A DNA stretch of 63,765 nt, the filler included, from Klebsormidium nitens (Eukaryota; Plantae; Klebsormidiophyceae), in assembly GCA_000708835.1 (NCBI GenBank). It is 6 parts of 6 records of this genome, joined end to end, with 100 filler letters (N's around TTAATTAATTAA, not from the genome) between each part and the next. Parts side by side here need not be neighbours in the genome. Positions count along the whole stretch, not along the records: positions 53,659 to 61,612 come from DF237324.1; 5 more parts are not named here. One strand, written 5' to 3'. The position numbers and the translations under genes are program-made. Each line of letters begins with the position of its first letter. Positions within the stretch are counted from its first letter, which is position 1. Positions 39,414-63,765 of the stretch are shown here, piece by piece. Below the pieces are notes generated by a model. The model made no database searches and had not been told where the DNA came from. It worked only from the letters and a program-made list of their open reading frames with translations.

Positions 39414-39598
39414 GTACTAGCATCATCTCCCCCTGGCGCAAAACGTACAAAACTTGTGAACTCCTTTCGAAATTTCGGACGCGGACGGTCTCTGCCCGGN
39501 NNNNNNNNNNNNNNNNNNNNNNNNNNNNNNNNNNNNNNNNNNNTTAATTAATTAANNNNNNNNNNNNNNNNNNNNNNNNNNNNNNNNNNNNNNNNNNN

Positions 39599-40592: not shown

Positions 40593-40866
40593 AAAATTTG
40601 GATCCAGCGAAAAGGTTAAAAAAAGATTCTTTTTTTGAGCAATGGAGATCCGTGTCTAGATGCTAACAGAATTGCCGGCTCCGGCGGCTCTGTGAGGCTG
40701 CGTATGCTACGCTGAAAGCTAGCTATGACGCTCTGGGTGTCTAACTGATCCCGAAATTCTAACTGAAGCCGGACGGCTCGCTCGTCATGCGCCGCCTGCG
40801 GCGCCGGGACAGGTCCTGTACACAGGTGCTGGAAAGCCAATGGCGGTCTGGAGGCTCGTGGGCCCG

Positions 40867-41871: not shown

Positions 41872-41932
41872 AGCATTATTTGCGCGCTAGTGAACCCGAC
41901 AGAAAATGTAGGTTCGGACAGAATGGGTTCTT

Positions 41933-44539: not shown

Positions 44540-45828
44540 GTTTGAAGGGCTGGGTAGAATGCTCTTTCCTTGAATGCCCGTGGAAGTATATCCAGTGAGG
44601 CCTAGCCGCGACTAGTGAGCTGACTAGGCTTGGTGGACTCCATGTGATGCAGAATCTTTTCAGAGCCAATGGTTGGCTGTTGGTCGACTGCAAAGTCGAC
44701 GTTCCCTAGGCTTAATGCTGGATTGTCAGATATCTCGTCGCTTGAAGTGACTTGACATGTGACATTAGGGCTGTTCGTGCATGGGTTAAGCTCAGTCAGG
44801 CTGGCACGAGCTGCCCTTTCTGACTGAATGGGTAGAGAGTCTGATCCTGTTGGACATCCAGTGACTGCAGCTGGAGTGACCACAACTAGTGCGGGCTCCT
44901 TCGGCGCAGTCCGTTGATCCAGAGTCAGAACTTTCTGACTCAGACTCTGAGCCAATGGCAGTGTGAGGTGACGAACTTGACCCCGTAGGTCTAGGAGTCA
45001 TAGTTGCCAGTCTGGCCACTTGAGTGGCCTGGTCTTCTGGTGATAGGGTATGAAACCCAAAATCATAACCGCGTGGGTCAGCCTTTAACACAGTTTGGAA
45101 TGATCTGGATGTGGATTCTTGTAACTGTTGGATTTGGATCGGCAGGTGGTGTCCTCGGACGTCCGATCCATTGTAAATCAGCCGGATCCTCCCAGTATTC
45201 GTAATTTCTGTGATGTGTATTGGTTATGATGGGGGGGAGTTTATCCAACTCCTCCAATTCTTTTGTCATTTTAATGCTTCGTGCACGTCGTTCATCCTCC
45301 TCTTTGTTACGTTGAGCGTCAGTTCTGCGCTGGTCTTTTGGTACATGATATGGCAACTGTTGCTCTTCTTCTTTTGCGATTTCTAAGGATCGAAAAGTGT
45401 CAGATTTCTCAGTATAATTAACGGTATTTGTGTGTCCCTCCCCCTCGCATTGGAACGAAATTTCTCAATCTCTTCATGCGGTCGAAAGCTCAACGGCATG
45501 TCGGGATTGCGTCTGAGGAATTGAGTTTCAGTGCGTTTTCGGGAATACTTTCGCTCGGTGTGTTTTCGTGCGCGTTGTTTGGTGATGGTGGCTGGCGCTT
45601 TGGGTGACAACTTCCGTTTTTGATGTTCCCGTTTGGCTGCCTTTGCTTGTATATGATCACTTATTTTATTTTCCAAATTGGTAAGATCAAATTCAAGTTG
45701 CTCGATTACATCTAGTTTTTTTATTTCGCATACGCGCGCTTCCTTCACATGTGAGGGCAAGGGATTTTCAGACTCTATTTCCTTGCGACTGGCAGGACTT
45801 GAGCTTCGTGAGGAATACGATTAGATAT

Positions 45829-46311
45829 TTAATGACGTTTCTCATATTCTTTCCATAATTCTTTCTTTAACTTGGGGTCGGTTATGCCCCTGGATGTCCG
45901 TCGGTTGTGTTGTGCCGCGGAACTCCGTGTAGTTTGGTTTCTAGGCTTATTAGCCAATTCCGGATGCATTGCGATGCATTGTGATGCATCATGGGTATTC
46001 AATTTATGATGGGTGCACCATGGTTTTCCAGGTATGCGTTGATTGATTCGACCATTGGTCATGGGCCGATTTGGGCATTGGGCCGCTTGATGGCCCGGTT
46101 GTCCGCATCTAAAACATGGTCCTGGCTGAAATGAAGCTGGGATGTTCTGAGCTGTTTTAGCACATGTTTTATTAGTACTTCTACAATTGGAGGCAGTATG
46201 CCCCAGTCGTCCACAATTAGCACACTTAGGCTTCTTAGTGTTATACTTATGGTCACTCTTAGAATTGCTAGGACTAGCGGACCTATGTGAAGTGATTGTC
46301 TTAGGATTCAA
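45829..46311 (-). CDS. Gag nucleocapsid region with two CCHC zinc knuckles and a further Cys/His motif
   Basis: CANCGRLGHTASNC, CFRCGQPGHQAAQC and WCTHHKLNTHDASQC. Confidence 0.85.
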   Translation of the reverse strand: MNPKTITSHRSASPSNSKSDHKYNTKKPKCANCGRLGHTASNCRSTNKTCAKTAQNIPASFQPGPCFRCGQPGHQAAQCPNRPMTNGRINQRIPGKPWCTHHKLNTHDASQCIAMHPELANKPRNQTTRSSAAQHNRRTSRGITDPKLKKELWKEYEKRH

Positions 46312-47255
46312 TAGCTTCTTTTGATTAATCGATTTTCTCTAATTTCTCGGCTTCCGATCTTAAACAATTCTACTGTCCAAGTACTAATATCTTCATACTG
46401 AAACTGTAACTTAGTTCTAACTTTAGACTGTATATTCCACGGCAAGGCATTGAGCAGCTTCTCAGCTGCCCGTGTCTGTGGTTGTTTTAGGTCTAACGCT
46501 AACTTAGACATCCTCTGACTAGCGGTTGCAATGGACTCATTCTCTTCAACCTTGAAGTCTCCATAAGCTTGGATCTTGGCGGCGGAATCCTTCGGGTAGG
46601 CCTGCAATAGACAAGTCCAAAGTTCAGTAACCGGATTTCCAAGAAAATCAGTAACCAATGGAGGTTCAGGTGGCAGAGTGGGTCTGGCATTCGAGCCGCG
46701 TTGTTCTGCTGTCTGGGCATCCCAGGCAACAATAGCTTGTTCAGCGGTAGTCTTATCCCTGATGTAATTGGATTGCAATGATTCATTATGTTTGACTAAG
46801 TCCTCTTCCTTTTCTGTTAAGAGTGTTAGACAAAGGTCGTGGGCTGCGCCACCAGTTCTGGACATGATAACATGGAACTTGTCCGTGGATGTTAGCCTGT
46901 CAAAACCTGCTTGCAACTTGTGTGTGGCTTCCCATGCTGAGTATGTTGAACGCAGGTTGTCCAGAGTGACAGATGATTTTGTCTCTCCGGTAAACTTCTG
47001 ACTAAACGAATCCAAGTCTTTCAGTGCTGTTGTGACGGAGGCCACTGACTGAGAGTCGGCTGAATCCAAAAGTTCAGAAGTATCGGTGTCCTGAGTGGTA
47101 GCAGAAAGCTCACCTCCTACAACACGATGTTGTCGGTGTGACCACTGGACAAAAGGTTGTCGTGGCCCTTCGTTCCTGTATGAAGAACGTTGGGCGTAAG
47201 GGTTCTGAAGGTTTCTGCGGAGATGGTATCCGCCTTCAGTTCCTGGATCGAACAT
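46308..47255 (-). CDS. Gag capsid-like region, frameshifted relative to the knuckle ORF
   Basis: The intronless ORF lies directly upstream of the knuckles. FKVEENESIATASQRMSKLA...KLLNALPWNIQSKV resembles the retrotransposon Gag C-terminal pattern. Confidence 0.6.
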   Translation of the reverse strand: MFDPGTEGGYHLRRNLQNPYAQRSSYRNEGPRQPFVQWSHRQHRVVGGELSATTQDTDTSELLDSADSQSVASVTTALKDLDSFSQKFTGETKSSVTLDNLRSTYSAWEATHKLQAGFDRLTSTDKFHVIMSRTGGAAHDLCLTLLTEKEEDLVKHNESLQSNYIRDKTTAEQAIVAWDAQTAEQRGSNARPTLPPEPPLVTDFLGNPVTELWTCLLQAYPKDSAAKIQAYGDFKVEENESIATASQRMSKLALDLKQPQTRAAEKLLNALPWNIQSKVRTKLQFQYEDISTWTVELFKIGSREIRENRLIKRSY

Positions 47256-48733
47256 AGGTACTGTGAGCTACCTGGTTGTCCAATCACACGTCCAAATTGG
47301 ACTAGTGGCAATTATTCTGCCTGAGTTGGAATGTCCAAACTCGTAATTATGCTGCTGATCCTATTGCAGAATCTTAGTGATTCTGCCAGTAGGCACTACT
47401 TTCCAACGTTGTTTTTCCTTTGACCTTTCAATTTGAAACTGGAAGGGATGATGCGGATCAACAATGTTGTCACCTGTCGCTGTGGGAAACTACTGTATAA
47501 CTACGTGGGTCTTATCTACTCCGAACGCAGGGGGTGGGTACTTTCCCACTGGGCTTGCCAGTTGCGGATGTCCGTTGGAGATTCCCTCCGCTGAACAACC
47601 GCCTAGTATGCTAACTGGACTCTATCACTAGCTGTTACACACAGGCTTTGAAAAATTCAAAGCTTCAATATCCAGTCAATCCTGACAGTTGTAACGATTA
47701 CGACTGGTTNNNNNNNNNNNNNNNNNNNNNNNNNNNNNNNNNNNNNNNNNNNNTTAATTAATTAANNNNNNNNNNNNNNNNNNNNNNNNNNNNNNNNNNN
47801 NNNNNNNNNTCATCTTATTCACACTCCCTTCTATTTACGATTCTTCCCTCCCAATAGTGTGCATGGGCCGCCTAAACCGCATCTCGTCCGTCGGTCGCCG
47901 GCCGAGGCGGCCGCGCACCGGTAACGATAAAGGGTCCCGTCGCATGCCCAAGCGCTACGCTTAATGCTTTGCGGGGGCCGCTCACCTCACATGGGCCGCG
48001 GGGCCATCGCGGGACCGCGCGGGTCCACGTGCCAAAGGTCGACTCATCGCGTGGCTTGACGGTACGCGATCGGCCTGAAGGCTGCAGCCTAGTTCTATAC
48101 TCGAGCCTGCCATGTCTCGTCCAGATTGTTTCAAGTTTGCGAGCAGATGCAACGACTCCATCTCCATAGTGACCAGCCTCCAAGCGTCCTGAATGGCCAC
48201 CATGGACCCACCAAGGGGACCACACATGCAGCTCTGCTCTGCACCCGTGCGGCGTGCGCCGCGGCAAGAGAGAGCCCGCCGCCCGTGAGCTGGCACGCGA
48301 CGTGCAGTATGCGTGCTGAGGCAGTCGCCCGCCTTTTAAGCGCGCACGCCCACGCGGATGTACACTCAGGCCCTCAGCCGCTGTGACCGGCAGGGTCCGC
48401 CGCCAAACCCGCGCCATGCTTGTTGGCGGTGCCCCGCGACTGAGAGAGCGCCGCTGCCTCCATAATAAGCATCCCGAAAATTGCGTTGCAACCTTTAGCG
48501 AAGATTCGGAGAACTAAGAGATTTCGCCGGAGCAGAATGGGCGGCTGTCGACCCTCAAAACCTTTAGCGGGGAGGCCTGGCCTGCGGTCTGTCCGTTCAG
48601 GCCATGTGGAGAAGTGGGCGCACGGAGTATGACTACATATGACGTAAGTCCCCACCCAATCGAACTGCTTCCCGCCCTTTCGTTTGTCTGGCCGAATAAA
48701 GGCAGGTGGCCGCTGCCAGGCGCTGGGGTCTAA

Positions 48734-51700
48734 ATGGCAGATATGGCCGAGCGGGTACCCTTTGGTGCTCGGGGATGCTACTTTCAGACCTGGAACTTGA
48801 TACAGGGACGAATCCCCGGTCCTCCTACTTTCCGCGTGCGCCTTCTGGCAGCCTTTTATCCACCAATCGTGTCACATTGGCGTCTCTCTGAATCGCCCCA
48901 AAGTTCTGGAGTTGACCTCGATGAAAAGGAAGGGATGATGCGCCAGCAAAAGGATCTCACAATCTTTAGGAAGATTCGATGGCCGACGACGACCATGTAA
49001 ACATTAAGGAGGAGATACTGCTGTGGGAAGCCCTTGTGAGTCCCACTCAGTGCCTTCTTGCTCCCAAGTTCAGCGTGCGTCTCCCATTATGTTGATTGGG
49101 GTTTTCTGTCGAGGCTTGTGGCTTCCCACAAGGTGCAGTGGAAATACTGATGCTTGATTGCTTTTGATCCTGCAGTACCATGGCAGCGGTCATGGCCATG
49201 ATATGTTTCAGCTTGGACAACAGGTTGCGCAGGAGTTTGAAGGTGGTGGGGAGCTGCTGGCCGATCTGCTGGTGAGTAGGAAAGCGGTTGCCTTGGTTTG
49301 TCGCTGCTTCTTGTATCTGGCGGCTGTCCAGCGGAATGATTTCTTGAATCGCACGACTACTGGCTTGATGGCCCCATTTCCTGGTCTGCAGCAACAAGGA
49401 GGAAATGGTGCTAGGGAGATGTCACCTCTGCTGGTGAGTAGGGAAAGGGAGAGGCTTTGCATTGATTGCTTTGATCAGTCTGAAGCTGATGGGGAGCGTA
49501 GGAAAAGGGTTGCCTTCATTGTCGTTGCTTCTTGTCTATAGGGGCTGTGCAGTGGAGCCATAATTTCATTGACTTTTATGGCAGCTGCCCTGATGGCCCC
49601 ACTTTCCTTAAGGAAGAGTGGTGCTGGGCCTCTGCTGGTGAGTAGGGAAAGGGAGAGGGTTTTCCTTGGATTGGATTCTGGGCTCTATGTACCATTTTCG
49701 GGGACCCGGGATCCGCCACAAACAGCAAAGCAACCTTGCTACAAAGCTTGGAAGCCTGATGGCCTGATTCGCTTGCAGGAGGATTGCCTGCCACCAAGCC
49801 CTAATGGAGACGAAGTCACCAGTCCTTTCAACGTGAGTACAATGCAGCTCTCAATTCCCATGGTTGGTTCAGAGTTGCTCAATGATTGGAAAGTTTGCTT
49901 CCTACGAAGAGCCAGAGCGTGGGATGATGGGAAGCTTCCTACTTGATGCAGCACAACGCTGGAGATGAGGCGGGTCAGGGTGGGGACTTTGATCTGCTGA
50001 GCCTCCTCATCGTGAGTCCTTTGGTTCTTTGGCTTGAAAGCTTGAAAGGTGCACGGGTTGCTCGCCTAGCGCCACCTCACCTAGTGCTGTGACTGTCCAG
50101 AGGTTGTTCCAACCAGGAGTTGTCTTGTGGTTTTTATGCGGTGCAGTGCGGAGCTGCACCACTACTGCAGCTGAGTGGTGTCTCTGTTTGAAACTCTGTA
50201 CAGGAAGAGGGGGCTGACACGAACCTGGAGGATACAGCTGGGATTGACAGTTCAACAACAAATCAGCAGATGTTACACGGGGTAAGTCTGTAAGCAGACT
50301 TTCTTTACATGAATGCAAGGAGGAATCAGCAGTTTCAACGAAGCTAGTCAAGGCAGATGTGCCATCTGGCAACCCGGCAGACTCTTTGTAATTCCGTGCA
50401 GGGGCAAGCGGACAATCAGAAGCGAGGCGACACAGGCTTTCATCCCATGCAAGAGCTCTTCACTGAGCAGCAGACACCAGCGTTTCCTGGCCGATTAGGG
50501 ATACCCCCCCTCACTCAGACAGGGATGTCCTTACCTTCTCCAACAGGGATGCCCTCGCCCACCAATATGGTAAGTGTGTTGACGTTATCAACTGTTGACA
50601 GTGTAAACACTGTAAGAATCTCACGCAAGAGAGGCAAGCTCGTCCTCCACATGTGACTGTGACCCTAAAGCCCTAAAACTAACCTAACCACGTGTGTGAA
50701 TGTGACGTGCAGGGTCAGGTGGACAACCCGCAACATTCATTTACAACTGCGTTCTCCAGCCCCATGCAAGGGGCATTCATTGGTCAAAGCATGCCAGCTC
50801 GCCGCCAGCTTTTCCCTCTCCAGTCGGGGATGCCCGCACCGACAGTCAGGGTAAGTCTGTTATGGCGCAGCAATGTCAAAGACACTTCATGGCTCGCCTG
50901 TGGCCTGTGTAATGTCTCAAAGGGAAACAGCTATGGCTGCTCAAGCTTCCGTTGAACGACGTGCAGGTTGAGGCGGGCAATGCGCGAAGTCCACCCCCAA
51001 CTGCGGTCTCAAGTCCCATGCCAGCTCACCGCCAGCTTTTTGCTGGGGTGTCCTCACCTGCAAACATGGTAAGCTCACAGCTGCATCCCTTGCAGCCGTG
51101 CAGGTGCTGAGCCTGTGCAAGGGCATGAGGAGAGTTGCACTTCTGCACTTCTTCGAAGTGCACCTCTTCGAAGTACTTCTTCGAAGCGCACTTTCCGTTC
51201 TCTCCTTGACTCCAGGAGTCCTCATGGGAGTCCCTCAGACTAGTAACAAAACACGTGCAGGGGCTGGGGGTCTCGTTTTCAGGCGTGCGCCAGCTTTCCT
51301 CTCCCCAGACAGTGGCACCGACTTCGATTCAAGGAGTCTACGGGCTTGCCAACAAGCCCAGCACGAGCGCCTACGGCTTTGCGCCCGCAGCCAGCGCCAG
51401 CGCCTACAGTCGTGCGCCCAGAGGTCTGCCATCACACCGGCCCGCAGCCAGCGCCAGCGCTTACAGCCATGAACCAAGAGGTCTGCCATCAAACGGGCCC
51501 GCGGCGAGCGCCAGCGCCTACAGCCATGAACCAAGAAGTCTGCCATCACACCGGCCCGCNNNNNNNNNNNNNNNNNNNNNNNNNNNNNNNNNNNNNNNNN
51601 NNNNNNNNNNNNNNNNNNNNNNNNNNNNNNNNNNNNNNNNNNNNNNNNNNNNNNNNNNNNNNNNNNNNNNNNNNNNNNNNNNNNNNNNNNNNNNNNNNNN

Positions 51701-52509
51701 NNNNNNNNNNNNNNNNNNNNNNNNNNNNNNNNNNNNNNNNNNNNNNNNNNNNNNNNNNNNNNNNNNNNNNNNNNNNNNNNNNNNNNNNNNNNNNNNNNNN
51801 NNNNNNNNNNNNNNNNNNNNNNNNNNNNNNNNNNNNNNNNNNNNNNNNNNNNNNNNNNNNNNNNNNNNNNNNNNNNNNNNNNNNNNNNNNNNNNNNNNNN
51901 NNNNNNNNNNNNNNNNNNNNNNNNNNNNNNNNNNNNNNNNNNNNNNNNNNNNNNNNNNNNNNNNNNNNNNNNNNNNNNNNNNNNNNNNNNNNNNNNNNNN
52001 NNNNNNNNNNNNNNNNNNNNNNNNNNNNNNNNNNNNNNNNNNNNNNNNNNNNNNNNNNNNNNNNNNNNNNNNNNNNNNNNNNNNNNNNNNNNNNNNNNNN
52101 NNNNNNNNNNNNNNNNNNNNNNNNNNNNNNNNNNNNNNNNNNNNNNNNNNNNNNNNNNNNNNNNNNNNNNNNNNNNNNNNNNNNNNNNNNNNNNNNNNNN
52201 NNNNNNNNNNNNNNNNNNNNNNNNNNNNNNNNNNNNNNNNNNNNNNNNNNNNNNNNNNNNNNNNNNNNNNNNNNNNNNNNNNNNNNNNNNNNNNNNNNNN
52301 NNNNNNNNNNNNNNNNNNNNNNNNNNNNNNNAGGTCTGCCATCACACCGGCCCGCAGCCAGCGCCAGCGCCTTTGCCTCAAGAAAACGCGCACGCCAGGA
52401 CTACAATGAAGAGAGAGTGATGGTTTCAGTCTTGAAGCAGTTGTCGCCCTTCGCGCCAGACAGGCAGGAAAGGTTGGTCAACCTAGTCCAATTCTTGGAG
52501 CAGTTGTAG
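48734..52509 (+). CDS. Orphan multi-exon, low-complexity protein; recognisable exons are all phase 0; terminal exon carries a 19-aa tandem repeat; start codon uncertain
   Basis: Phase-0 exons with AG/GT borders include YHGSGHG..LADLL, RNDFLNR..MSPLL, GLCSGA..GPLL, EDCLPP..PFN, HNAGDE..LLI, EEGADT..LHG, GQADNQ..TNM, GQVDNP..TVR, then TVAPTS...FLEQL*. Confidence 0.55.
51383..52375 (+). repeat. 57-bp coding tandem repeat (PAASASAYSHEPRGLPSHR), mostly hidden in the gap
   Basis: About three copies precede the N-run and a partial copy follows it (gcccgcagccagcgccagcgcctacag...ggtctgccatcacaccg). Confidence 0.9.
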
Positions 52510-52569
52510 GCGAGGTTGAGTTGTAGTGCGCCAGGATTACAGCCAGCGGGCATAGGGGGTACTTGTGCT

Positions 52570-52872
52570 GAGTTATTTGAGTTATTTGAGTTATTTGAGT
52601 TAAATGGGGTACTTCGATTTTGACCGGAGGTATTCACACATTCCACTCACGACATCGGTCTGTGTCTGTATAGAATTGTAACATAGATTTTGGATGTCAC
52701 CGTGGTGGGTTAAGGAACTTATACCCTGTCTAGCTACGGAATAGAGGTTGGCTGTTTTTGACCGGAGATACTCACACGTTCCTTATAGATTTGTAACATA
52801 GAGGTTGAATGTAAACGTGGTGGGTTAAGGAGATTATACATACTGTCTAGCTAGGGAATAGAGGTTGGCTGT
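52570..52872 (+). repeat. (GAGTTATTT)x3-4 followed by a diverged tandem duplication of about 115-135 bp
   Basis: ttttgaccggag...gtggtgggttaagga...ctgtctagcta.ggaatagaggttggctgt occurs twice. Confidence 0.75.
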
Positions 52873-53013
52873 ATAGGAGGTGTGTTAAGATCATAGATAG
52901 TGAGAGGGGCCTTAGGGCCATGTACAGTGGCCCGCTAGTTGCGCACGCACGGATTCAGCCTTTGCTCTTAGGAGGGTGATCAGCAAGCAGAGGAGCGTGG
53001 TCATTACAATTAT

Positions 53014-53558
53014 GTGCAGAGATCACAGTCGGATATGTCTCAACCACGCCTTATAAACCCCCCCAATTCAGCCATGTATGCCAAGTGTTTTGCCAAGCGG
53101 CAAAGACGTGCGTCCATTGCAAGTGCATTGGGGTTTGCAATCCCCCCTCTCATGAATTGGATGCAGGATAAAGGGATGTTCTGTGTCATCATAGGAAGCC
53201 AGGCGCTGAGACACTGGCAAGTGCAGGTGGCGCCACCTGCATCGATTCAATTGGAAGATGAGACAGAGAAAAATGCTTTTGCCCCAATTGACTGGAACAT
53301 CTGGGTACTGACATCCGATGACGATGAGGCCGCTTGGGTGTCGACCGAACTATGCACTTACTTTCAGCTTCTGCTTGAGCAGCTGCGTGCAGTCAAGGAG
53401 CTGCGGAGACACAGGCTTTACACCACTGCACAATCGCGCCATTGCGACACGCCTCTGTCCACAGAATACACCTCTGTGTACGGTGTAAACACGCGTGTGG
53501 TCGGCATCGCTCTCGAGAAGCCGACGCACAAATTCATTGATGAAGCGGCGCTGAACAG
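53014..53558 (+). CDS. Hypothetical intronless ORF, possibly Pol-beta-type nucleotidyltransferase fold, truncated by the gap
   Basis: CVIIGSQAL followed by APIDWNIWV loosely resembles the hG(G/S)...DxD signature, with N in place of the second D. Confidence 0.3.
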
Positions 53559-53807
53559 NNNNNNNNNNNNNNNNNNNNNNNNNNNNNNNNNNNNNNNNNN
53601 NNTTAATTAATTAANNNNNNNNNNNNNNNNNNNNNNNNNNNNNNNNNNNNNNNNNNNNCATCACAGATAGACAAGACCAGGTCGAGTCATCTGGATAGAA
53701 CGCCGTACATCAACGGTCTCACAGCGCGCCGTTAAGACGTAACCGCTGTCGTTTCGCTAACAAGCAGCTAACGAAATCCTGACGAGAACGAGGTTAGGCT
53801 TAACCAG

Positions 53808-54599
53808 ACGTAATCGTCACACTGGCAATATTTCGTGCGAGGCATTCGAAGGAGCTGCGGCTGCAGGCGGCGGAAACTCTGCCGTATCCAGAGCCCCTTC
53901 CGCCGCCCGCCTATCTGCCTCCGCCCTTGTCATGGCTCCTGAGCAAGAGCCCGGTTCGTGCTGACGGCTTGGCGGCCCTCTTCGCGGGCACCGCAGGCGG
54001 ACTCAGGATCGACCATAGAACCTGGAGTCTGCAATATCATCCCGACCACGTGCAGGTGAGCCAAAAACACGGATCGAATTAATGAGGAGACCTGTACAGT
54101 TTCTGAACAGAAACCCATTTAACCCTTTTGGTGAATATCTACATCTGTACAGCTTTTTTGCGCGTTTTCACTTTCGAAAACGTGATAATACGTGTGCCTG
54201 TACACTTTTGCGCAGGTCAAGAACGCAAGCGCCCTCGAGGCCTTCGAACGGCACTATGGCTACTTCATTGACGACGAGCTTAGGGGGCTCGACTCTTCGG
54301 CGCGTGCTGAGAAGGTCGTCTCTATCTACTCCACGGCGCTCTACGCACCCATCAACGAGCACCGCTTCGGGCCGGGCACCTTGGCGCAGAAGCTCGGCGG
54401 TTTTGAATGGCAGTGGTGGCTGATCGTGGAGGCCGATTTGGTGCGGGAGTATCGGAGGTATCTGGAACGATTCGATGCACATGGTGCGGCTGCCGCAGCG
54501 GCAAGCCAAGCGGTGGACGCCGTGCGGGAGCGGTGGTTCGAGAACGAGATCGATAGCAAGTTCAAGAGCTCGTTGGCATACTCGCGCAATGTCGAGTAA
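53808..54599 (+). CDS. Spliced hypothetical gene with a J-domain-like HPD motif (intron 54056-54215); start not seen
   Basis: Phase-0 splice CAG|GTGAGC...TTTTGCGCAG|GTC gives RTWSLQYHPDHVQ-VKNASALEAFERHYGY. Confidence 0.45.
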
Positions 54600-54662: not shown

Positions 54663-55145
54663 ATGCAGGGCATCATTGACTCTCAAGCCAAGAGGTCCAA
54701 TCAAATCGAAGATTTCTACAACGGATGCCTCGACAAAGCTGTAGGCCGAATCAAACGCACATATACTGAGGAACGATGCACGAGCATGATTCTGAAGGTC
54801 GGTGAAATCGCTGGATCAAGAGCATTTCTCCCCCCATACTCAATGCGCGATCTGGTCAAGGTGGTACGCTTCGGGCTTGAAAAAGCCGGAGTTCGAGTGC
54901 ATAAATGCCGCGATCCCCACCATCTTTCCGTCGATTGGAGGGGTATCCTAAAGAAAAGCGCCCAACCGTCGGATGCTAGAGCGATTCACAGCAAACGTAA
55001 GCATGTGGCTGCGGATGGTGGGTCACACGGTTTCATCTTCGATGGGGAGGGCGGTGGAATCCCGATGCTGGATGTGCTGATGAACCCCGCAAAATGCAAA
55101 CCGGAATATCTTTGCAAGCAGAAGGCAATCGATGTGACGAGTTAG
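54663..55145 (+). CDS. Hypothetical protein resembling a small conserved giant-virus (NCLDV) family, recalled as DUF5759-like
   Basis: Pattern Y..CL.K...RIK...PPY...D....V...L.K.G..V....HLSVDW parallels that family. Recognised from memory, not searched. Confidence 0.45.
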   Translation: MQGIIDSQAKRSNQIEDFYNGCLDKAVGRIKRTYTEERCTSMILKVGEIAGSRAFLPPYSMRDLVKVVRFGLEKAGVRVHKCRDPHHLSVDWRGILKKSAQPSDARAIHSKRKHVAADGGSHGFIFDGEGGGIPMLDVLMNPAKCKPEYLCKQKAIDVTS

Positions 55146-55195
55146 CACCCATGCCCCATCCCCCGTTCGTAAGTCCGAACGATGTTCGACCGATT

Positions 55196-55825
55196 CTAAT
55201 AGCCAGATGATGAAGAATCGTAATCGTCGGTGACTGGGGGCGCTCGGCGTCGTCGTCGGAAGCCCTTAGGTTTTGGCTGCATGTTGAGCGCTTTAGGAGT
55301 CGTCATCGCTTTTGACTTCCTTCGGTTTGCTTGTGCAGTCAAAGCCTCGAATGCTTCGATCGAAAGCTTCGTAGCGCTCGTCCTATAAGACCCCTCAAAA
55401 TGCATAGCCTGAGGCCTCAGATTCTCTGGCAACGCATGGAGAGATACCTGGTATGCATACTCTTTGTGTTTGCTGGCCCTCGTTGTCTCCATCAGCAAAA
55501 CATATGCCTTGAATGGAAGGGTTGCTGACCTAGGGGCCGACACTTTGAGCAACCGATATAAAGCACTACCGGCTCTGCAACCCGCTTGTACGACGCGGCC
55601 TCGCTCTGCATCGATCTCGAGCCGCGAATTATCCAGCTTGCTGGATTGATCCGAACACTTTGCATCAAGTGCCTTCACAATCTTGAATGATCGTCGATTT
55701 CTCTTGTCTCTGAGCGGCCGATCTTCCATATCCAATGAGATCATAATAAAATGCAGCAGGGGTCGGCGTGAGAGCGGCTCCCCCTGATGCCTTTTTGGAG
55801 TCTGTCTGTGGATAACTAAAAGCAT
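55196..55825 (-). CDS. MC1-like (archaeal/giant-virus non-histone DNA-bending) protein
   Basis: RSFKIV...GRVV...LLMETTRASKHKEYAYQV parallels the viral MC1-type RSFK...GR...ETTRGSKxKxYxY pattern. Basic tail. Confidence 0.5.
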   Translation of the reverse strand: MLLVIHRQTPKRHQGEPLSRRPLLHFIMISLDMEDRPLRDKRNRRSFKIVKALDAKCSDQSSKLDNSRLEIDAERGRVVQAGCRAGSALYRLLKVSAPRSATLPFKAYVLLMETTRASKHKEYAYQVSLHALPENLRPQAMHFEGSYRTSATKLSIEAFEALTAQANRRKSKAMTTPKALNMQPKPKGFRRRRRAPPVTDDYDSSSSGY

Positions 55826-56106
55826 GCCCCGTCAAATGTCCACTCGTCAAGCGGAATGCACTATTAAATGCGAACGGCCTCCCTTGTCTTTTAGAATACT
55901 CCAATGTTTATTTACAGTAAATAGTACTGCTGATATTTTACACCCAAAGCGCTTTGATAAATTCATTGTTTTATAAGCGTCCGAACGCCTCGAAAAAGAT
56001 GCCCATAGCCCCTTGGAATAAGGCCTCGTGAAATCGGACTTCCTTACCCAGAGCGCTTGCTTCGGATTATTCTGAGAATAATATCTTACGGGAGAGTATC
56101 GTCCCC

Positions 56107-57159
56107 ATGGCAGCTAACCAGTCAGCACCAGCAACCGATGATGATGTTAAGAGAGTCATATGCGGCGAGAGTTTCTGTCATAACCTGCTAAATGACGGCA
56201 TCGCAAGGGCCTCGACGACTTGTATTCAGTACATGGCAAGCCTGACTGTGATGTATAAGCTGCTGAACAGGGGAACGGTTATGCCGCCCAACATCGAGTG
56301 GATTCGCGACGACATCGACCGCCTCATCCCCTTGCTGGAAAAAAAGTACACAAATAAGGGGACACTTTGCAATAAATATACGCCGTTGATGACCCTGTCA
56401 AAGCAGCAAGGGTGGATGGATTCGTACAACCGATACTATCGAAGCTTCTTGATCGCAAAAACAGCGCAAATCTCTCAGGCAGGATCGCAGAAAGCCACCG
56501 AAAAAGAAGAGGCCAATTGGATCGACATAGGCGAGATCAAACAGAAGATGGAAGAGCTAGGACGGCGCATCATGCGCCAAATCCTCCCCGAGTTCCGCGC
56601 GAGCCGGAGGCCGCTCGGTCAAGACGAGGTGAAGTGTGTTTTTCAACACCTCGTGCTGGCGGCAAACGTCCTCGAACCTCCCAAACGACGTGATTGGGGT
56701 AACCTTCCGATTCGGAAGCTGGACGGCACCTTCTACAATGAAGCAGCGAAGGCCCTATACGAAGAGTTTGGCAACGAACTGGTCGAGAAAGCCACCGATA
56801 CATATGTCATGGTCCTGAAGACGTTCAAAACTGCCAAAAAGTTCGGTCAGCAGGAGTTCGAGTTGCCAAAAAGGCTCTCGCACTACATTCAGCGCTCGAT
56901 CGAGCTCGTTCCCAGGGCGTACTTCGTGACACTGCTGAGCGATCTCGGCCAGCCCATGAATGATAACTATTGGACGCAATTCATTCGAGAGATTCCGTTT
57001 TCAAAGGGCCGCCACCTCACGACGAACCATCTGCGGCACGTATTCGTGACCGATAGATACAACAAAGACGCCTCCCTCTCCGATCGACAGTCCGTTGCTG
57101 GCCGAATGCTGCACTCCGTTTCGACCCAGATGCGTAGCTACGAGAGGAAGCGGAGCTAA
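56107..57159 (+). CDS. Tyrosine recombinase/integrase of the Polinton-like-virus/virophage/NCLDV type
   Basis: Catalytic set appears in order: EPPKRRD (R), FKTAKKFG (K), NHLRH (HxxR), RMLHS (H), RSY (Y). The 350-aa ORF is uninterrupted. Confidence 0.88.
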   Translation: MAANQSAPATDDDVKRVICGESFCHNLLNDGIARASTTCIQYMASLTVMYKLLNRGTVMPPNIEWIRDDIDRLIPLLEKKYTNKGTLCNKYTPLMTLSKQQGWMDSYNRYYRSFLIAKTAQISQAGSQKATEKEEANWIDIGEIKQKMEELGRRIMRQILPEFRASRRPLGQDEVKCVFQHLVLAANVLEPPKRRDWGNLPIRKLDGTFYNEAAKALYEEFGNELVEKATDTYVMVLKTFKTAKKFGQQEFELPKRLSHYIQRSIELVPRAYFVTLLSDLGQPMNDNYWTQFIREIPFSKGRHLTTNHLRHVFVTDRYNKDASLSDRQSVAGRMLHSVSTQMRSYERKRS

Positions 57160-57497
57160 GTGGCTTCAATCGACCTGTCTGATACGAACCTCATCAGGTT
57201 GTCCCCTTCCTCAAGATTTTCGAAGGATTGAGGAGTCGTAACGGGAAACCCTGCATTCAACAACCTCTCAAGCATCCGTTTTTGTGTCTTCACTCCGGTT
57301 TGATACCTCTCATATGCTTGTGCTAGAAGTATTGAATCCTTTTTTCGTGCGTAATAGCGTCTACCGGATCGTTTGTGGGCTTCGGGGTCGCGGAAGTAGT
57401 TCCTTCTGGCTGTCAGGCAATGCCTGCACTCGCAAGTGAATATCTCGTTGTCGTAAGTGTCTTTTAAAGGTTGGTCTGCGGTCGAAGACGACATCAC
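57156..57497 (-). CDS. Small basic viral-type hypothetical protein
   Basis: CECRHC followed by RRNYFRDPEAHKRSGRRYYARKK. It is packed between the recombinase (4-nt convergent overlap) and the primase. Confidence 0.45.
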   Translation of the reverse strand: MMSSSTADQPLKDTYDNEIFTCECRHCLTARRNYFRDPEAHKRSGRRYYARKKDSILLAQAYERYQTGVKTQKRMLERLLNAGFPVTTPQSFENLEEGDNLMRFVSDRSIEAT

Positions 57498-57591
57498 TAA
57501 TCTGCAGCTAGAAAATATTCCTCAGACATCGCCCGCGCCGCGTTTATTCCTCGTGAAAATTTCCTTCTTCCATTGGAGAGAGAACCTCAGC

Positions 57592-60473
57592 ATGCAAAAC
57601 GCCAACACCCCTTGCTCCCTCGAGCACACCATCGACGCGCCTGCAATCGAGATCCCAGAGACTCTGCCCCCCGAGGAAGAGGATGCTGTGACCCACGGCA
57701 CCCGAGACGTCAGACCTGCGTCATCCAACGGTTTGAGCATCAAGGATGAGATATTGCACCTCGCTGACCACGGACTGTATGGGATCCCGGTGCACATCAA
57801 GATCGATTCTCGTGGCAAGAAGCGGAGCCGGTTTCCTTCCACCTACGCGCACATAGTCACCGTGGACGATTGGCAGGAACACATCGGTACAGTGCTCGAT
57901 GCATTTGAAAACCCCAATGGAGTGGCTATACTGACCGGCACGAGTGGCCTATTCGTCATCGATATTGACGTGGCGGATACCAGCGATAAGAAGTCGGGAA
58001 TGGACTTCTGGCACGGGCAAATCATTGAGCATGGAGAGCCGGAGACACTCTCCGTTCGCACGGGCTCTGGAGGCCTCCATTACTACTTTCGGCTCGACAA
58101 AACCACCGGCTTGCACGAAACTACCAATTTTGCTGGACTCACGCTCGATGGGCAAAAGTTCGGCGTCGACGGCCGCGGCATGGGAGGGGTAATCTTTGCA
58201 CCGCCGAGCAGGTACGGGGAAGGCAAGGATACACGCCGCGAGTACACGTGGGTGGCCGGAGGCGATGGTAAGATCAATGGTATGCCCCCGGGGCTCGTGA
58301 CCTTAATAAACCGAGGGCGCGCCTCGGAAGGGGTTTTGAGAAATGCAAAAAGCCGAGTGCCTCACCATAAGGAAGTCCATTCTGAGGAGGTCACGCCAGA
58401 GGCCGTCGACAACGCAGAGGCTGGCGGCCCCGCGGCCAAGGCGGCTCCGGGCTTGGCGCACGTGGAAGTCAAGCAATTGGTGAGGGAGAAGGCGAAGGAT
58501 TGCTGTTCCTTCTATACCGGCTCGACCATCCTACCGGACGGCAACAGATCGTTTCAGTTTAGGGTCAATGGGCCGCGCCAGTGCTACCTTGGGAAAACGC
58601 ACAGAGGGTCCAACAATTTCACGGTGATTCAAGGGTGCACCGGTGACTTCCAGGAGCTTTCTTACAATTGCTTTGGGTCTGGTTGCTGTGGCAGCAAGCC
58701 GAAGCTACTGGGGCGTCTCACGATAGCCGGTGCTCTCGAGCAAGCTGGGGGTGGTGCTTTTGGGCCCAAGGATCAGCAGCCGTCGAGCCTCACTAAGCTG
58801 GCCGCTAGGTTCTCCGAACCGTTCATGTTGTCAAACGTAAGTAAGAGCGATTTCGGGAGTGCTCTGATATTCAGCAAACTATTCGAGCATGACAGGCGGG
58901 TCGTGTATGACTCAGGGAGATTTTGGACGTGGGATGCAACGAGTTGGGTGCCCTCCGATATGGAGGCAACTCTGCTGAAGACCTCGTTCATGTACCACAT
59001 GGGACGGGTCAAATCCTTTTGGTGCGATCGCCTAGAACGAGATGCTGCAGAAAGGGTTCAGCCGTTGACTACTCGCAGAGACAATGCTGTGAATGAACTA
59101 CAATCTAGGGCCCCGCAGAGTGCGGACAATAACAAGAAGGACGTCTTGAAGGCCATCGAAAAGGCAGAGAAAGCTATCATGGCAGACTTCAAGACGGAGC
59201 TGGATAAGATACCCAAACCGGTGTGGCATGGGGCTGAAGTCGAGTCTGTCCCAATCGCTCACAGGTGTCTCATTCCTCTGAAAGTGAATTTACGTGTGCG
59301 GGATTTTGCAAGCTCGCTGAATGCCAATCGGGACTACTTGAACACCACATGTGGCGCCATCGACCTCCGAACGGGGGAGCTCGTTGCTCACCATCCAAGC
59401 AATATGCTCTTAAAAGAGATTGGCACCCTTTATGAGGGTGCCAGTTACCCATCGCCGCTCATTGATCAATTCATGGCTGAGGTGCTGTCCGAGGACATAG
59501 TTCCCGTTATGCAAATGACGCTCGGGTATGGCATCACTGGGCACAGCAAGGAAAAGCAATTCATCGTCATGCATGGCCCTACGAACAGCGCAAAGACAAA
59601 ACTCGTCACCATGGTCCGAGAGTGTACCGGACCTTATTGCGTTTCTATGGCCCGAGATTGCGTCATAGGCGCAGGTCAGCACTCAGAAGGGGCTGCCACG
59701 CCGCATCTTCTTATGCTCGATGGAGCGCATATTGCTGTCCTCGAAGAGACTGAGGACTCGGATATATACAATGGAGCATCGGTTAAGGCAATCGCGTCCG
59801 GCGATGGAAGCATGACGGTGAGGGGGCTGCACAAGGACCCCGTTGAAGTCACTATGAGGTGCCTACCGATCATATGCACCAATTCATTGCCAAAGTTCAA
59901 TGCAGGAGATACGGGTACCCTCAACAAGCTGAGGATCTTTCCGTTTGAGCACGAGTTCGTGGAGAACCCGAGGCCTGGAACCAACCAGAGATTACGAGAC
60001 ACCGATCTCATGGACAAGATCAAGACCCCCGAATGGAGGAAGCAGATGCTAGCTTGGCTCGTGCGCGGCAGCATGAAGTGGTACGAGCCCCGGGCACTCT
60101 ACCGACGGTCGAAGAGTTGCCTCCGGCCATGGGCAAGGCACTCGAGAGCTATTCGAATGACAACGACCACTTTGGGAACTTCATCATGGACGGATGCATC
60201 ATACAGCCGAGCCAGAGGTGCCATGTGAGGCCTCTGAAGGAGGCGTACGAGATATACATGGGCAGACTCCAACGTCCGATGGTCGAGAACGACTTCAAGA
60301 CTCTGATGAGGCAACTCATCCCAAATGGGGTCGTGTACTCGCTCGGCGTGAAAATCGAGCGAATCAATACCACCGGCTACAGAGGCATAGGGCTGCTCGA
60401 CCCGAACGAAGAAGCATGGGACTTGGAGGGGGAACAACAGGCGGCAGACGAGCAAGTCGCGAGAGGTAGGTGA
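57592..60473 (+). CDS. Prim-Pol (AEP) primase + D5-like SF3 helicase, with a 1-nt frameshift near 60090
   Basis: Prim-Pol motifs GLFVIDID, RTGSGGLHYYF and DGRGMGGVIFAPPS; D5_N-like YLNTTCGAIDLRTG; Walker A HGPTNSAKT; Walker B AVLEE; motif C ICTNSLP. The C-terminus YSNDNDHFGNFIMDGC...GYRGIGL continues in ORF 60033-60473. Confidence 0.92.
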
Positions 60474-60760
60474 GGTAGGTGGAGGTAGGTGCAAAGGTAG
60501 GTGTCGAAAAAAGTCCGTTCTCCGAATGATTTGCGTACTGTTTTGTTACTAGGTAGGTAAAGTAGTTATAAATTTCTTTTTTTATATATAGAAGAGAAAA
60601 GGATTTCCTTCCGATCCTCCTCCACCAATTGCTTTTTTTTTTTCTGTATACATAAAGAAAAGTTGGAAGATAACTACCTACCTACCTCAACTACCACCTG
60701 AATTCATCGACTGATCATAGGACTGGAACCCTGTAGGACTGCAACTACCTCAACTACCTC
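60464..60760. promoter_or_regulatory. Candidate replication origin: convergent iterons around an AT-rich core
   Basis: AGGTAGGT occurs at 60464, 60473, 60483, 60495 and 60551. An AT-rich core spans about 60559-60672. Reverse-oriented CTACCT/CTACC copies follow at about 60674-60695 and 60745-60759. Confidence 0.55.
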
Positions 60761-61609
60761 CCTAAGAGCACTGCCCTAAAGGCCTCGCTCCACAGCCTCG
60801 CCGGCACGGCTATGGACAACTTGGCGTCGTCTACCCTGCTCAGGTCGAGGTTGAAGCCGCTCAGCAGGATTGGGAGGAAGACCATTAGACTCTGGAGCCC
60901 AGAGTACCACCCAAGCACCCGGAACTTCTTTAGAAAGCTGTTCACGCTCTCAACGGCAGAGGTGTTGACCCATCGGAGGGCGTCGTAGTACTCGGTGGCG
61001 TTGCTCGGGCCGCACTTGTGCACCTCTGCCCCGGCTTTCGCATAATGAAACCTGCATGGAAGCGAACGGCGCATGAACAAACGCACAATCGTAACACCTT
61101 CACCCTTTGCTGGAATGACTCGATCTGTGCAGGAATCGACCTGCAGAAGCCGAAGCTTTTGATTGAGCAGACGCTTACCTGTCAACGACGAAGGTGACAT
61201 CGGAGAAGAACGCCGGCTCGCGGCGCATGCAGTAGTTCCTCAGCTGGCATGCGTTGTCATAAACAACGAATTTTGGGAGATCCTCCCGGTCCTTGCGCGT
61301 GTACAAAACCGCGAACGCATCGCGGGGGCTCTCCCCCCGGAGGAAGAAGTGGAAGCCCGAGATGACCCGGTGCGGACAACAGAAGAGGAAAGCACCCCGG
61401 CTGCGGTGGGGGCGCTTGCCCTTCTTCGTCGACTTGCTCCCCCCCTTGACCAGCCCGGGGACGTTTGCGGCGTCCCACTCGCCCACCGTCTGCCCGGTAG
61501 CGCATTTGAACTCCTCCGACGTCCTGCTGCGCCCGTCCTCGTGCTCGAAGGACGTGTATCGCGGCAAGCCCCGTCGCTGTTCCCACCCCGGCAGCGCGTA
61601 GTGCCCCAA
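60754..61609 (-). mobile_element. Kyakuja-Dileera-Zisupton (KDZ) transposase, C-terminal part; intron 61180-61052; 5' end lost in the gap
   Basis: GAFLFCCPHRV, FVVYDNACQL, VDR|FHYAK...HKC and NTSAVESVNSFL are the KDZ motifs. The splice is GACAG|GTAAGC...CATGCAG|G. Confidence 0.85.
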
Positions 61610-62327
61610 CCCNNNNNNNNNNNNNNNNNNNNNNNNNNNNNNNNNNNNNNNNNNNNTTAATTAATTAANNNNNNNNNNNNNNNNNNNNNNNNNNNNNNNN
61701 NNNNNNNNNNNNGGGGATCATTCGAAGTGCGAATTCCCAACCAGCCAGCAGAAATGTCTTGAGCAGAAATACAACATTTTTACAGAGCAAGCGCCTCCAT
61801 CCGAGAATGCCTGCAACCATGCTTTCCGCACATGGTTGCCGTATGTGTGTCTAGTTATCCCGCCAGCGCTTCGCTTAAGCTGGCCAACCGTCACAGTGGT
61901 ATCAGAGGGTAGAGTTCTGGTCTCTTCGCACAGATTGGATTGGGTCCAAGTCGGACGACGAGCGCCTTTCGTCATACCTCGACAGAGTAACGGATCTTTG
62001 TTTTAGTATCTCGGAGTTGAGATTGAAGAAAAGCTCTGAAGGGGAGGTTGCGAAGCCTTCCACAAGTGCGAGTCTACTCAGCGCAGAGGCACCGGCGTTT
62101 ACTCCTGCAAGCAAGGGGAAGGAGCACTGCAGGTTTCTGGGGACCAGGAAAGCAATCTGCTGTTTTTGAGGATTGGGAGAGTGTTCCTATTTTGCCTTTT
62201 GAGAGTGTTTCACTTGCAACCAGTTACAGTCAGGTTGCTGGGTCTAGCTCTCAGGCGCTTTTTGTTACTCCTGTGAGGAGAACTGTAAGGGCACAGTCTG
62301 TTGAATCTGCCGAGTCGGGGATCACTA

Positions 62328-63448
62328 TGGCTGCAGCTGGGGGGTGGTGTTCCACCTGTTCCTCCGCCTCCTCCGCCAGTGGCACCGAACTTTGCCAGCT
62401 GTACGGGTCCTCAGTTTGAGGCGTACTGGCAAGCTCTTGGTACTGATGGTGAAAGGATTGCGGCTGAAACACTGGCTCTGACGATTCAGAATGCTCCAGT
62501 GACGTTGGTTGTGTTGACTCATCAGAATGAGCGCAACTAGGCTCGCGTCGCGAATCTGAACAATGCTTTGGGCCGTGCCCAGAACCAGATCGCTGCTGCA
62601 AATGCCAACGCGATAGCCAGGGCTGCTGCTCCCTCGAGATTCGAGAACAAGGAGAGTGGTCCTGACATTCGTCAGTGGTTGCCTATGATTGAGGAGTATC
62701 TCAATGCTACGCCCAATGCAGAGTATCTGCGTATTGCGTCTTCCTACCTTAATGAGAAGCCGAGGTCCTACTGGATGTCGGCTTGGGAGGCATGGCAGGC
62801 AGCCAACCCTGCAGCGTATCCTGGAAGTGCAGTCCCGGGTCCATTTATTGGAAACGCTCGTGCGTTCTTCCGTGAGACCATGATCAGGGGCTATGGTCCC
62901 CGTACTCCCATTCAGTCTTATTGGGATACCTGGAACAAGTTGTCCCAGAGGTCCAAGAGTGTGGATGACTACAATATCGAGTTTCACTAGGCCATGGTTA
63001 ATCTTCGTGAGGAGATCACTGGAGAGGCTGTCAAGATCGAGAAGTATCGGTCTCGACTTCAGCCTGACATCAGGGAGATGTGTCGTACGTCCCCCACTGG
63101 TCAACGTTGGGCTACGCTCAATGAGAAGGGTAGTATGCAACGCTGATGTGGCCTATTGTGGCTGAACGTTTGGCGAAGCGTAAGTCTTCCCAGCCTGCCA
63201 AGTCGGTGGGTGGTAAGCGCAAGGCCTCAGAAAGTGGTTATGGACGTTCGTCCAAGGCCAAGTTGTCGGCAGCTCTTACTGATGAGCAGTATGCCAACGA
63301 TATGGAAAACCGCTTGTGCCACAAGTGTCACAAGCCAGGCCATATTGCCCGTGATTGCGAGAAGGACGTTCCAAGTGGAAGCCAGAGCAAGGGCAAGGGC
63401 CAGAAGAAGGGTAACAAGAAGTCGGAGAAGGGTTTTCAGAAAGTCTAG
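62328..63448 (+). pseudogene. Decayed Ty3/Gypsy-type gag with CCHC knuckle; no pol within the window
   Basis: DIRQWLPMIEEYL...WNKLSQRSKSVDDYNIEF and CHKCHKPGHIARDC. In-frame TAGs at about 62538 and 62988, plus a frameshift near 63130. Confidence 0.8.
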
Positions 63449-63765
63449 CCAACATAGGACAGTTGCCTAGTCAGGAGAACTCTGTATTGGATCTGACAGA
63501 ATAGGACTTCCTGAACATTTCAAATGTTACTTGTCGTATGTTTGAAATGGGAGTTCAGCGTTCAGAAGATTCCATCTCCACAGATGTAGGTCCTATTTCA
63601 GCTTTTCTGTCATCGTCTATGGCAAGCAAGCATGTGTGGATAAACGCGAGCTGCCATGCCGGACCAACGGCGCGCCGGAGGAGGCGACGCACGTGGGGCC
63701 GCGGCTGGAGCAGCGGATAAGACGCCGGCAGACGATAGGCTATAGTCCAGTGTATATTCGTATAA

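What the first reader, a model, noticed from the sequence alone, without database searches (positions are those of the whole stretch)
54663..60760. Compact integrative, self-replicating virus-like element with no visible capsid (integrase + primase-helicase + nucleoid protein + candidate ori)
Seen: tightly packed intronless ORFs in about 6 kb, comprising two giant-virus-like small genes, a tyrosine recombinase with a full catalytic set, a small basic ORF, a Prim-Pol/D5-SF3 helicase and an iteron array. No jelly-roll capsid, A32 ATPase, protein-primed PolB or SF1 helicase is recognisable. Established: Polinton-like viruses and virophages carry capsid and ATPase genes, transpovirons use SF1 helicases, and bacterial PICI/P4 satellites use exactly integrase + primase-helicase + adjacent ori. 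Inference: a eukaryotic PICI-like satellite of a giant virus, or a reduced giant-virus/PLV relic, integrated in an algal genome.
Basis: partly seen in the sequence, partly recalled or inferred. Interest (0 to 1): 0.86.

Follow-up and report, generated by a model that had tools for sequence, protein, structure and literature searches.

The report
Repeated virus-like replicon in an alga
This is a damaged copy of a repeated DNA element in a green alga; it carries a recombinase and a primase-helicase, likely spread like the integration-and-replication arm of a polinton-like virus, and sits on a contig cut at both ends, so a missing capsid is not shown.

Summary
The core genes are real: a viral-type tyrosine recombinase, a Prim-Pol/D5-SF3 primase-helicase, a probable DUF5759 gene and a non-random head-to-head AGGTAG array around an AT-rich core.

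Corrections: this copy's helicase is frameshifted near 60090. The recombinase has Asn for the HxxR His. The 'nucleoid protein' label got no tool support. Both 'gaps' are fixed assembly linkers, so the element's ends are unknown.

New: it belongs to a multi-copy family. Recombinase and DUF5759-like relatives share 16 exact contig lengths, an unbroken helicase exists in another copy, and this copy has the same depth as single-copy neighbouring DNA.

A helicase homologue is labelled Klebsormidium nitens, a species with seven published polinton-like-virus (PLV) capsid genes. Recombinase + primase-helicase + inverted repeats is the described PLV 'end module'. Best reading: the replication-integration arm of a PLV-type element (0.45). 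Rivals: capsid-less replicon (0.25), KDZ-carried composite (0.15), giant-virus relic (0.12).

The parts
53559..53658 (.). Assembly linker (44 N, 12-nt six-frame stop linker, 44 N); adjacency across it is unproven
   Evidence: the same linker occurs 5 times in the window
53659..53821 (.). End of a very high-copy host repeat (ends in CA; LTR- or MITE-like) that cuts the element's left part
   Evidence: summed depth about 5e4 in X1, loose ends at 53821 in three runs, near-absent in organism B; similar terminus at 47690-47709
53822..54599 (+). 5'-truncated spliced gene with an HPD motif (J-domain-like, recalled label); predicted GT-AG intron 54056-54215
   Evidence: splicing gives an open 206-aa frame; no Pfam/NCBIfam/PHROG hit; covered by related contigs in organisms A and B
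54663..55145 (+). DUF5759-like small gene (giant-virus-type family), 160 aa
   Evidence: weak; 29 related clusters at 54-86% identity
55196..55825 (-). Basic ORF (pI 10.5, 209 aa); MC1-like nucleoid label is unconfirmed
   Evidence: no hit; single-sequence model too poor to use
55826..56106 (.). Intergenic stretch between divergent genes; likely promoters, possibly a recombination site (untested)
   Evidence: sequence; 56% AT
56107..57159 (+). Tyrosine recombinase of PLV/giant-virus type, 350 aa, open frame; R194 K241 (N307) R310 H336 Y345
57156..57494 (-). Small basic ORF with a CxCxxC cluster, 112 aa, no family
57592..60473 (+). Prim-Pol + D5/SF3 primase-helicase, frameshifted near 60090 in this copy; C-terminal part in ORF 60033-60473
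   Evidence: other contigs of the same sample are two bases shorter at 60090 (depth 54 of 105)
60464..60759 (.). Head-to-head AGGTAG arrays (5 on +, 5 on -) around a 73% AT core (60557-60673); candidate replication origin; overlaps the stop codons of both flanking genes
60754..61612 (-). 3' part of a KDZ (Kyakuja-Dileera-Zisupton)-like transposase gene; predicted GT-AG intron 61178-61052; runs into the contig end
   Evidence: Pfam KDZ E 0.0067, below cut-off; splicing gives a 244-codon frame with one terminal stop; related contigs skip this intron region
61613..61712 (.). Assembly linker; beyond it lies a decayed gag-like gene with a zinc knuckle

Best explanation
The contig holds a damaged copy of a multi-copy element that is likely the replication-and-integration arm of a polinton-like virus (PLV)-type element, whose capsid genes would lie beyond the broken contig ends or in other family members. 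Shown: the gene set, the repeat array, the multi-copy state, the recurrent pairing of the genes, single-copy depth of this locus, and the frameshift. Inferred mechanism: the tyrosine recombinase excises the element as a circle and inserts it elsewhere. The Prim-Pol/SF3 protein binds the head-to-head AGGTAG arrays, opens the AT-rich core and primes copying. The small giant-virus-type genes likely act on DNA packaging or on a helper giant virus. Repeated insertion would explain the subfamilies with short branches. This copy has a broken helicase and a host repeat in its left part, so it would be dead or dependent on other copies. The KDZ-like gene is likely part of the repeated unit (captured or fused), but that link is indirect.
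For: The order recombinase, primase-helicase, inverted repeats matches the PLV 'end module' of Barth et al. (PMC11296320; passages and section 5 read). In the green alga Tetraselmis, 18-19-kb PLVs put a D5 helicase-primase next to a recombinase on one side and capsid genes on the other (10.1101/2025.10.09.676808, passages), so an 8-kb broken contig could show only this arm. P0047, labelled Klebsormidium nitens, is 100% identical over helicase residues 40-400. Bellas et al. list 7 capsid genes of one PLV cluster in that species, five full-length ones at 71-100% identity to one reference (supplement rows); their text places the PgVV group in Chlorophyta and Streptophyta. That spread resembles the family's recombinases (70-95% for 12 of 15 clusters). 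Recombinases are the most widespread information gene of PgVV-like PLVs, and such PLVs also carry giant-virus-type genes (10.1101/2022.07.28.501842, passages). Multi-copy: 576 contigs of run X1 lie on the stretch (140/123/195/118 at 99+/95-99/90-95/<90%; some belong to the left repeat) and all 30 bins are covered in a second organism. 16 of 45 recombinase contig lengths recur among 41 DUF5759-like ones, and 4 among 9 helicase ones; chance gave 0 in 9,148 of 10,000 draws, at most 3. P0254 is an unbroken 901-aa helicase with canonical GKT on a contig length shared with a recombinase. The recombinase family is one clade (100/100) with short terminal branches.
Against: No capsid, ATPase or terminal repeat is on the contig, and no call linked any copy to a capsid gene. 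Two spliced, host-style genes are within the repeated stretch, whereas PLV genes are usually intronless (recalled). DUF5759 clusters are mostly Nucleocytoviricota, and the species also holds giant-virus polymerase, capsid, ATPase and VLTF3 genes (PMC5294986, table passage). The inverted arrays are followed by a gene rather than by host DNA, unlike a terminal repeat. No relative was found in 8 of 8 IMG/VR scans. 4 of 8 family helicases share the A-for-G Walker A change and 1 has E, which suggests much copying in a defective state.
Confidence: 0.45

Rival explanations
1. A capsid-less, self-copying integrative element (transpoviron- or PICI-like in lifestyle): recombinase plus Prim-Pol/SF3 plus origin are the whole engine. 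It multiplies in the nucleus or rides in particles of a helper virus.
For: The contig is fully tiled without structural genes. Dozens of diverged but conserved copies exist (48 recombinase and 42 DUF5759-like sequences), more than the 7 capsid genes listed for K. nitens, though from other assemblies. A 2026 preprint argues that such replicase modules can act as autonomous elements (10.64898/2026.10.13.758929, section 13 read).
Against: Ends unseen on both sides. PLV capsids exist in the named species at a similar divergence. No circle or joined-end contig appeared among the joints shown, though contigs are weak for this.
Confidence: 0.25
2. A large KDZ DNA transposon that captured a virus-derived block and carries it as cargo; the DDE transposase, not the recombinase, makes the copies.
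For: The KDZ-like gene's stop codon overlaps the right repeat arm. Summed depth runs on across 60750 in both organisms (X1: 105, 120, 136, 115). No multi-contig loose end at that junction is among the rows shown (344 rows not shown). Giant repeats with a flanking transposase and many recombinase genes are described in Amoebidium (PMC11244446, passages).
Against: The Pfam match is below cut-off. No transposon end or target duplication was seen. Two organism-B contigs match from 60575 and 60645 rightwards with unrelated left parts, so the KDZ side may also occur alone. Plavaka, the Amoebidium transposase, is not related to KDZ (PMC12730594, passages). The recombinase keeps its catalytic residues in most full-length copies.
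Confidence: 0.15
3. A piece of a giant-virus (Nucleocytoviricota) genome that was inserted many times or duplicated after insertion.
For: DUF5759-like gene. Recombinase fold matches are mostly giant-virus proteins. The best PDB match of the helicase profile is the asfarvirus primase C962R (E 3e-26). Giant-virus core genes are reported in the species.
Against: No giant-virus core gene is on the contig. The primase domain is Prim-Pol, and the intact copy scores best against phage primases (E 2e-69). The paper's table lists no D5 for this species. The segment on the left is single-copy, absent from organism B and has no recognisable viral gene.
Confidence: 0.12
4. A contaminant or a free, non-integrated virus co-assembled with the alga.
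For: The contig is bounded by linkers. CpG is not depleted (o/e 1.03 against 0.71-0.81 in the other five segments). The contig bridging the host repeat reaches only 26 letters into it, below the tool's 31-letter rule.
Against: Contigs identical to this copy have depth 7-17 in X1, like the neighbouring single-copy segment (13-16). The contig begins in a very high-copy repeat of organism A. It has spliceosomal-type introns and a frameshift. Relatives occur in a second sample and a second organism.
Confidence: 0.03

Closest known systems
PLV 'replicative end module' (AHEV_PLV2, CBEV_PLV1, Gezel-14T; Barth et al. 2024, PMC11296320) and Tetraselmis S2x PLVs (10.1101/2025.10.09.676808)
   Same: Primase-helicase placed between a tyrosine recombinase and inverted repeats; no protein-primed PolB.
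   Different: No capsid or ATPase seen; primase domain is Prim-Pol (PF09250) rather than the D5-type AEP or TVpol described there; the repeats are short head-to-head arrays followed by a gene; spliced J-like and KDZ-like genes adjoin.
PgVV-group PLVs listed for Klebsormidium nitens (Bellas et al. 2023, PMC10120064, Tables S1, S4, S5)
   Same: Same named species; multi-copy with a similar spread of identity; the group commonly encodes a tyrosine recombinase.
   Different: Only capsid genes were readable in the tables; no link to this recombinase/helicase could be tested.
Transpovirons (about 7-kb capsid-less episomes of Megamimivirinae; PMC11464507, passages)
   Same: Size, 6-8 genes, no capsid, can integrate.
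   Different: They are associated with giant-virus particles and factories; an SF1 helicase is their hallmark (recalled). This element has SF3/Prim-Pol and a recombinase and is multi-copy in a host nuclear genome.
Bacterial P4/PICI satellites (recalled)
   Same: Integrase + P4-family primase-helicase (TIGR01613 above cut-off in P0254) + repeat arrays around an AT-rich core.
   Different: Eukaryotic host, viral-type recombinase with no relative in GTDB scans, no phage-interference genes, no att sites or helper shown.
'Plavaka giant repeats' of Amoebidium (PMC11244446) and KDZ transposons (PMC12730594)
   Same: Repeated blocks that pair a DDE-type transposase with tyrosine-recombinase genes.
   Different: Different transposase lineage; a primase-helicase and origin-like array are not described there in the passages read; no KDZ termini found here.

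Membership tests
Polinton-like virus | Major and minor capsid genes | tested here: inconclusive
   No room on the contig; both ends are cut; flanks of other copies were not obtainable.
Polinton-like virus | A32-like packaging ATPase | tested here: inconclusive
   No GxxxxGK[ST] motif on the contig; ends unknown.
Polinton-like virus | Integrase (tyrosine recombinase or rve) | tested here: met
Polinton-like virus | Replicase (pPolB or primase-SF3 helicase) | tested here: met
   broken in this copy, unbroken in P0254
Polinton-like virus | 14-40 kb length with terminal repeats | not testable with these tools
   No genome held; contig 7,954 nt; no long terminal repeat within it.
Transpoviron | SF1 helicase (recalled hallmark) | tested here: not met
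   The helicase is D5/SF3.
Transpoviron | Episome carried in giant-virus or virophage particles | not testable with these tools
   No virion data; this copy is at host single-copy depth.
P4/PICI-like satellite | Integrase + P4-family primase-helicase + origin | tested here: met
   origin function itself untested
P4/PICI-like satellite | att-bounded, capsid-less unit mobilised by a helper virus | not testable with these tools
   No ends, att sites or helper seen.
KDZ transposon | KDZ transposase domain | tested here: inconclusive
   Pfam E 0.0067, 16.6 bits against cut-off 26.6, one exon only
KDZ transposon | Termini (CA..TG or TIRs) with 7-8-bp target duplication | not testable with these tools
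   Gene runs into the contig end; features from PMC12730594.
Giant-virus endogenous element | Core genes (PolB, VLTF3, NCLDV capsid, A32) in a long block | tested here: inconclusive
   None on the contig or recognised in the adjacent segments; adjacency across linkers unproven.

The most novel reading that the evidence does not exclude
A capsid-less, self-copying DNA element family of a land-plant relative: tyrosine recombinase, Prim-Pol/SF3 replicase, iteron-type origin and giant-virus-type accessory genes, possibly fused to a KDZ transposase, amplified to dozens of nuclear copies. It would be a direct eukaryotic counterpart of P4/PICI satellites and a concrete case of a PLV replication module living on its own.
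Probability: 0.3. Interest if true: 0.8.

Novelty: new variant of a known kind. Interest (0 to 1): 0.5.

Why it matters
Autonomous movement of PLV replication-integration modules has been proposed from scattered genome maps. Here the module forms a multi-copy family with unbroken members in a culturable alga, so a long-read assembly and an outward PCR could settle whether it travels without a capsid. If it is a PLV arm, it still supplies the probable replication genes of PLVs for which I could read only capsid entries in a streptophyte alga, and it shows an unusual link to a spliced KDZ transposase.

Tried and rejected
No whole genome is held for the window, so other copies' flanks could not be read.

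Scans for related loci found nothing: IMG/VR 8 of 8, JGI metagenome contigs 2 of 2, GTDB 2 of 2. They rely on short exact peptides and reach close relatives only.

No RNA holder was listed; this is no evidence on expression.

MC1 identity of the basic ORF: five sequence or feature searches blank. The single-sequence model (pLDDT 59) was not used for a fold search. I read passages of the MC1 preprint, which give no testable sequence.

The wide structural search of the recombinase model did not run. Rfam: no match. Phage tblastn with P0254 gave only 20-23% identity in the 15 rows listed.

No att-like or terminal repeat was found within the contig. Summed contig depth was not used as a copy number.

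The ORF at 53035-53558 was considered as part of the element and rejected: single-copy and absent from organism B.

Literature searches returned no paper describing this element. The journal version of the Gezel-14T paper is not held (preprint passages read). bioRxiv supplements are closed. Figure S5 of PMC5294986 and Dataset S1 of PMC10120064 are pictures. Any of these could show this element next to a capsid gene. Searches of earlier scan findings by place and by sequence were empty.
Full report
SETTING. The window is a chain of six segments separated by one fixed 100-nt linker. The finding lies on the segment 53659-61612 (7,954 nt). No whole genome is held. A helicase homologue labelled Klebsormidium nitens (P0047) is 100% identical over residues 40-400; its gene model skips the stretch before this copy's frameshift. 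I take the host to be that alga or a very close relative.

GENES. The ORF at 56107-57159 has no Pfam recombinase hit itself. A profile of 16 close sequences finds 1,840 relatives at E<=0.001, and 5 of 11 such relatives scanned hit Phage_integrase below cut-off. R194, R310 and H336 are invariant and K241 and Y345 nearly so in 19 aligned sequences. The His of HxxR is Asn307, a position that also varies in the relatives. The model (pLDDT 65) matches giant-virus proteins including a named integrase and, weakly, Cre. The ORF from 57592 has Prim-Pol and D5_N domains. It shifts frame near 60090: the unbroken homologue P0254 aligns as 1-785 to 57733-60087 and 787-898 to 60093-60428 in another frame, and other contigs of the same sample are two bases shorter there. 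Walker A has A for G in this copy and in 4 of 8 family members, canonical G in 3 and E in 1. The ORF at 54663 is DUF5759-like on weak evidence. The basic ORF at 55196-55825 gave no hit anywhere; its MC1 label is a recalled resemblance. Two spliced genes flank this core. On the left is a truncated gene with an HPD motif, cut by a very high-copy repeat at 53821. On the right is the 3' part of a KDZ-like transposase. Assigned genes fill 6,735 of 7,954 nt, and no capsid or ATPase fits.

REPEAT ARRAY. Five AGGTAG copies on each strand face each other across a 73% AT core. The cluster (10 in 300 nt) exceeds the best hexamer cluster of all 60 simulated contigs (maximum 5) and folds with z = -3.6. The stop codons of the helicase tail and of the KDZ-like gene both lie within the arms. 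An origin is the likeliest function, by analogy with iteron origins (recalled) and with the PLV end module. A paired terminator or a recombination site is not excluded.

IT IS A FAMILY. Fifteen recombinase clusters at 46-95% identity were found, many truncated, and 29 DUF5759-like clusters. With members read (one cluster listed only 15 of 20) I had 48 recombinases, 42 DUF5759-like proteins and 10 JGI helicases; the three NCBI-named and the distant helicases were left out. Exact 'longest contig' lengths are shared by recombinase and DUF5759-like proteins 16 times (of 45 and 41 distinct lengths), by recombinase and helicase 4 times (of 9), and by all three once. Random draws gave 0 in 9,148 of 10,000 and never more than 3. 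This shows shared contigs, not order or distance. In a tree of 43 recombinases the 19 family rows form one side of a branch (100/100), with two supported subgroups and short terminal branches, mostly under 0.06; the outside rows carry no names, so the tree does not place the family among PLVs or giant viruses. In run X1, 576 contigs lie on the stretch at 85-100% identity, part of them from the left repeat. All 30 bins are covered in a second sample of organism A and in organism B. Contigs identical to this copy have depth 7-17, the same as the single-copy segment on the left (13-16), which organism B lacks. So this locus is one integrated copy among many. Against over-reading: summed depth is not a copy number, the one contig bridging the host repeat enters it by only 26 letters, and CpG is not depleted as in the other segments.

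IS THE KDZ GENE PART OF IT? For: depth continues across the junction in both organisms, no multi-contig loose end at about 60755 is among the rows shown (344 rows hidden), and its stop overlaps the array. Against: two organism-B contigs match rightwards from 60575 and 60645 with unrelated left parts.

COMPARISON. Barth et al. (PMC11296320; passages and section 5) describe PLVs whose primase-helicase lies between inverted repeats and a tyrosine recombinase, and propose the repeats serve as both origin and integration substrate. Tetraselmis PLVs of 18-19 kb have a D5 helicase-primase beside a recombinase, with capsid genes on the other side (passages). Bellas et al. list seven PLV capsid genes for K. 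nitens (supplement rows). Gallot-Lavallee and Blanc list giant-virus polymerase, capsid, ATPase and VLTF3, but no D5, for K. flaccidum, recalled as the earlier name of this species (passages). A 2026 preprint argues such replicases can move alone (passages and section 13); another notes frequent replication-module switches (passages). Sarre et al. describe transposase-flanked giant repeats rich in recombinases (passages), and Kojima separates that transposase from KDZ (passages). Searches found no description of this element; unreadable figures and closed supplements could hold one.

VERDICT. It works like a PLV end module: recombinase-driven excision and insertion, Prim-Pol/SF3 copying from a repeat origin. 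I put that mechanism at about 0.7, the sum of the first two readings; all of it is inferred from anatomy and none assayed. Membership is open. PLV arm with capsid genes out of view 0.45, capsid-less replicon 0.25, KDZ-carried composite 0.15, giant-virus relic 0.12, contaminant 0.03. Interest 0.5; 0.8 if full-length copies prove capsid-less.

Noticed in passing
window 39600-47709 (-): Retrotransposon-like segment with zinc knuckles, an aspartyl protease and a C5 DNA methyltransferase (Pfam E 7.5e-14); methyltransferase-carrying retrotransposons in this alga are recalled as described.
   Followed up: partly
window 53035-53558 (+): Single-copy ORF (174 aa, cut by the linker) with a GS motif that recalls nucleotidyltransferases; no family hit; preceded by an 89-nt direct repeat at 52669/52784.
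   Followed up: partly
window 53659-53821 and 47690-47709: Ends of a very high-copy repeat with TG..CA-type termini, near-absent in organism B; two of the five linkers fall beside it.
   Followed up: partly
window 21673-21990, 38609-38934, 39202-39416: Three MITE-like units of 200-330 nt with 27-30-nt terminal inverted repeats that begin alike.
   Followed up: no
window 61713-63765: Decayed LTR-retrotransposon start: primer-binding-site-like motif near 61900 (recalled) and a broken gag with a zinc knuckle.
   Followed up: no
run X12 on window 47810-53558: All differences from the window are C>T or G>A (79 and 87), a pattern that suggests a converted library rather than strain variation.
   Followed up: no
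P0052, P0053, P0054; P0012, P0014, P0063: More distant full-length Prim-Pol/D5 proteins (33-39% identity over the N-terminal part) and recombinases (46-51%) suggest related element families in other organisms.
   Followed up: partly
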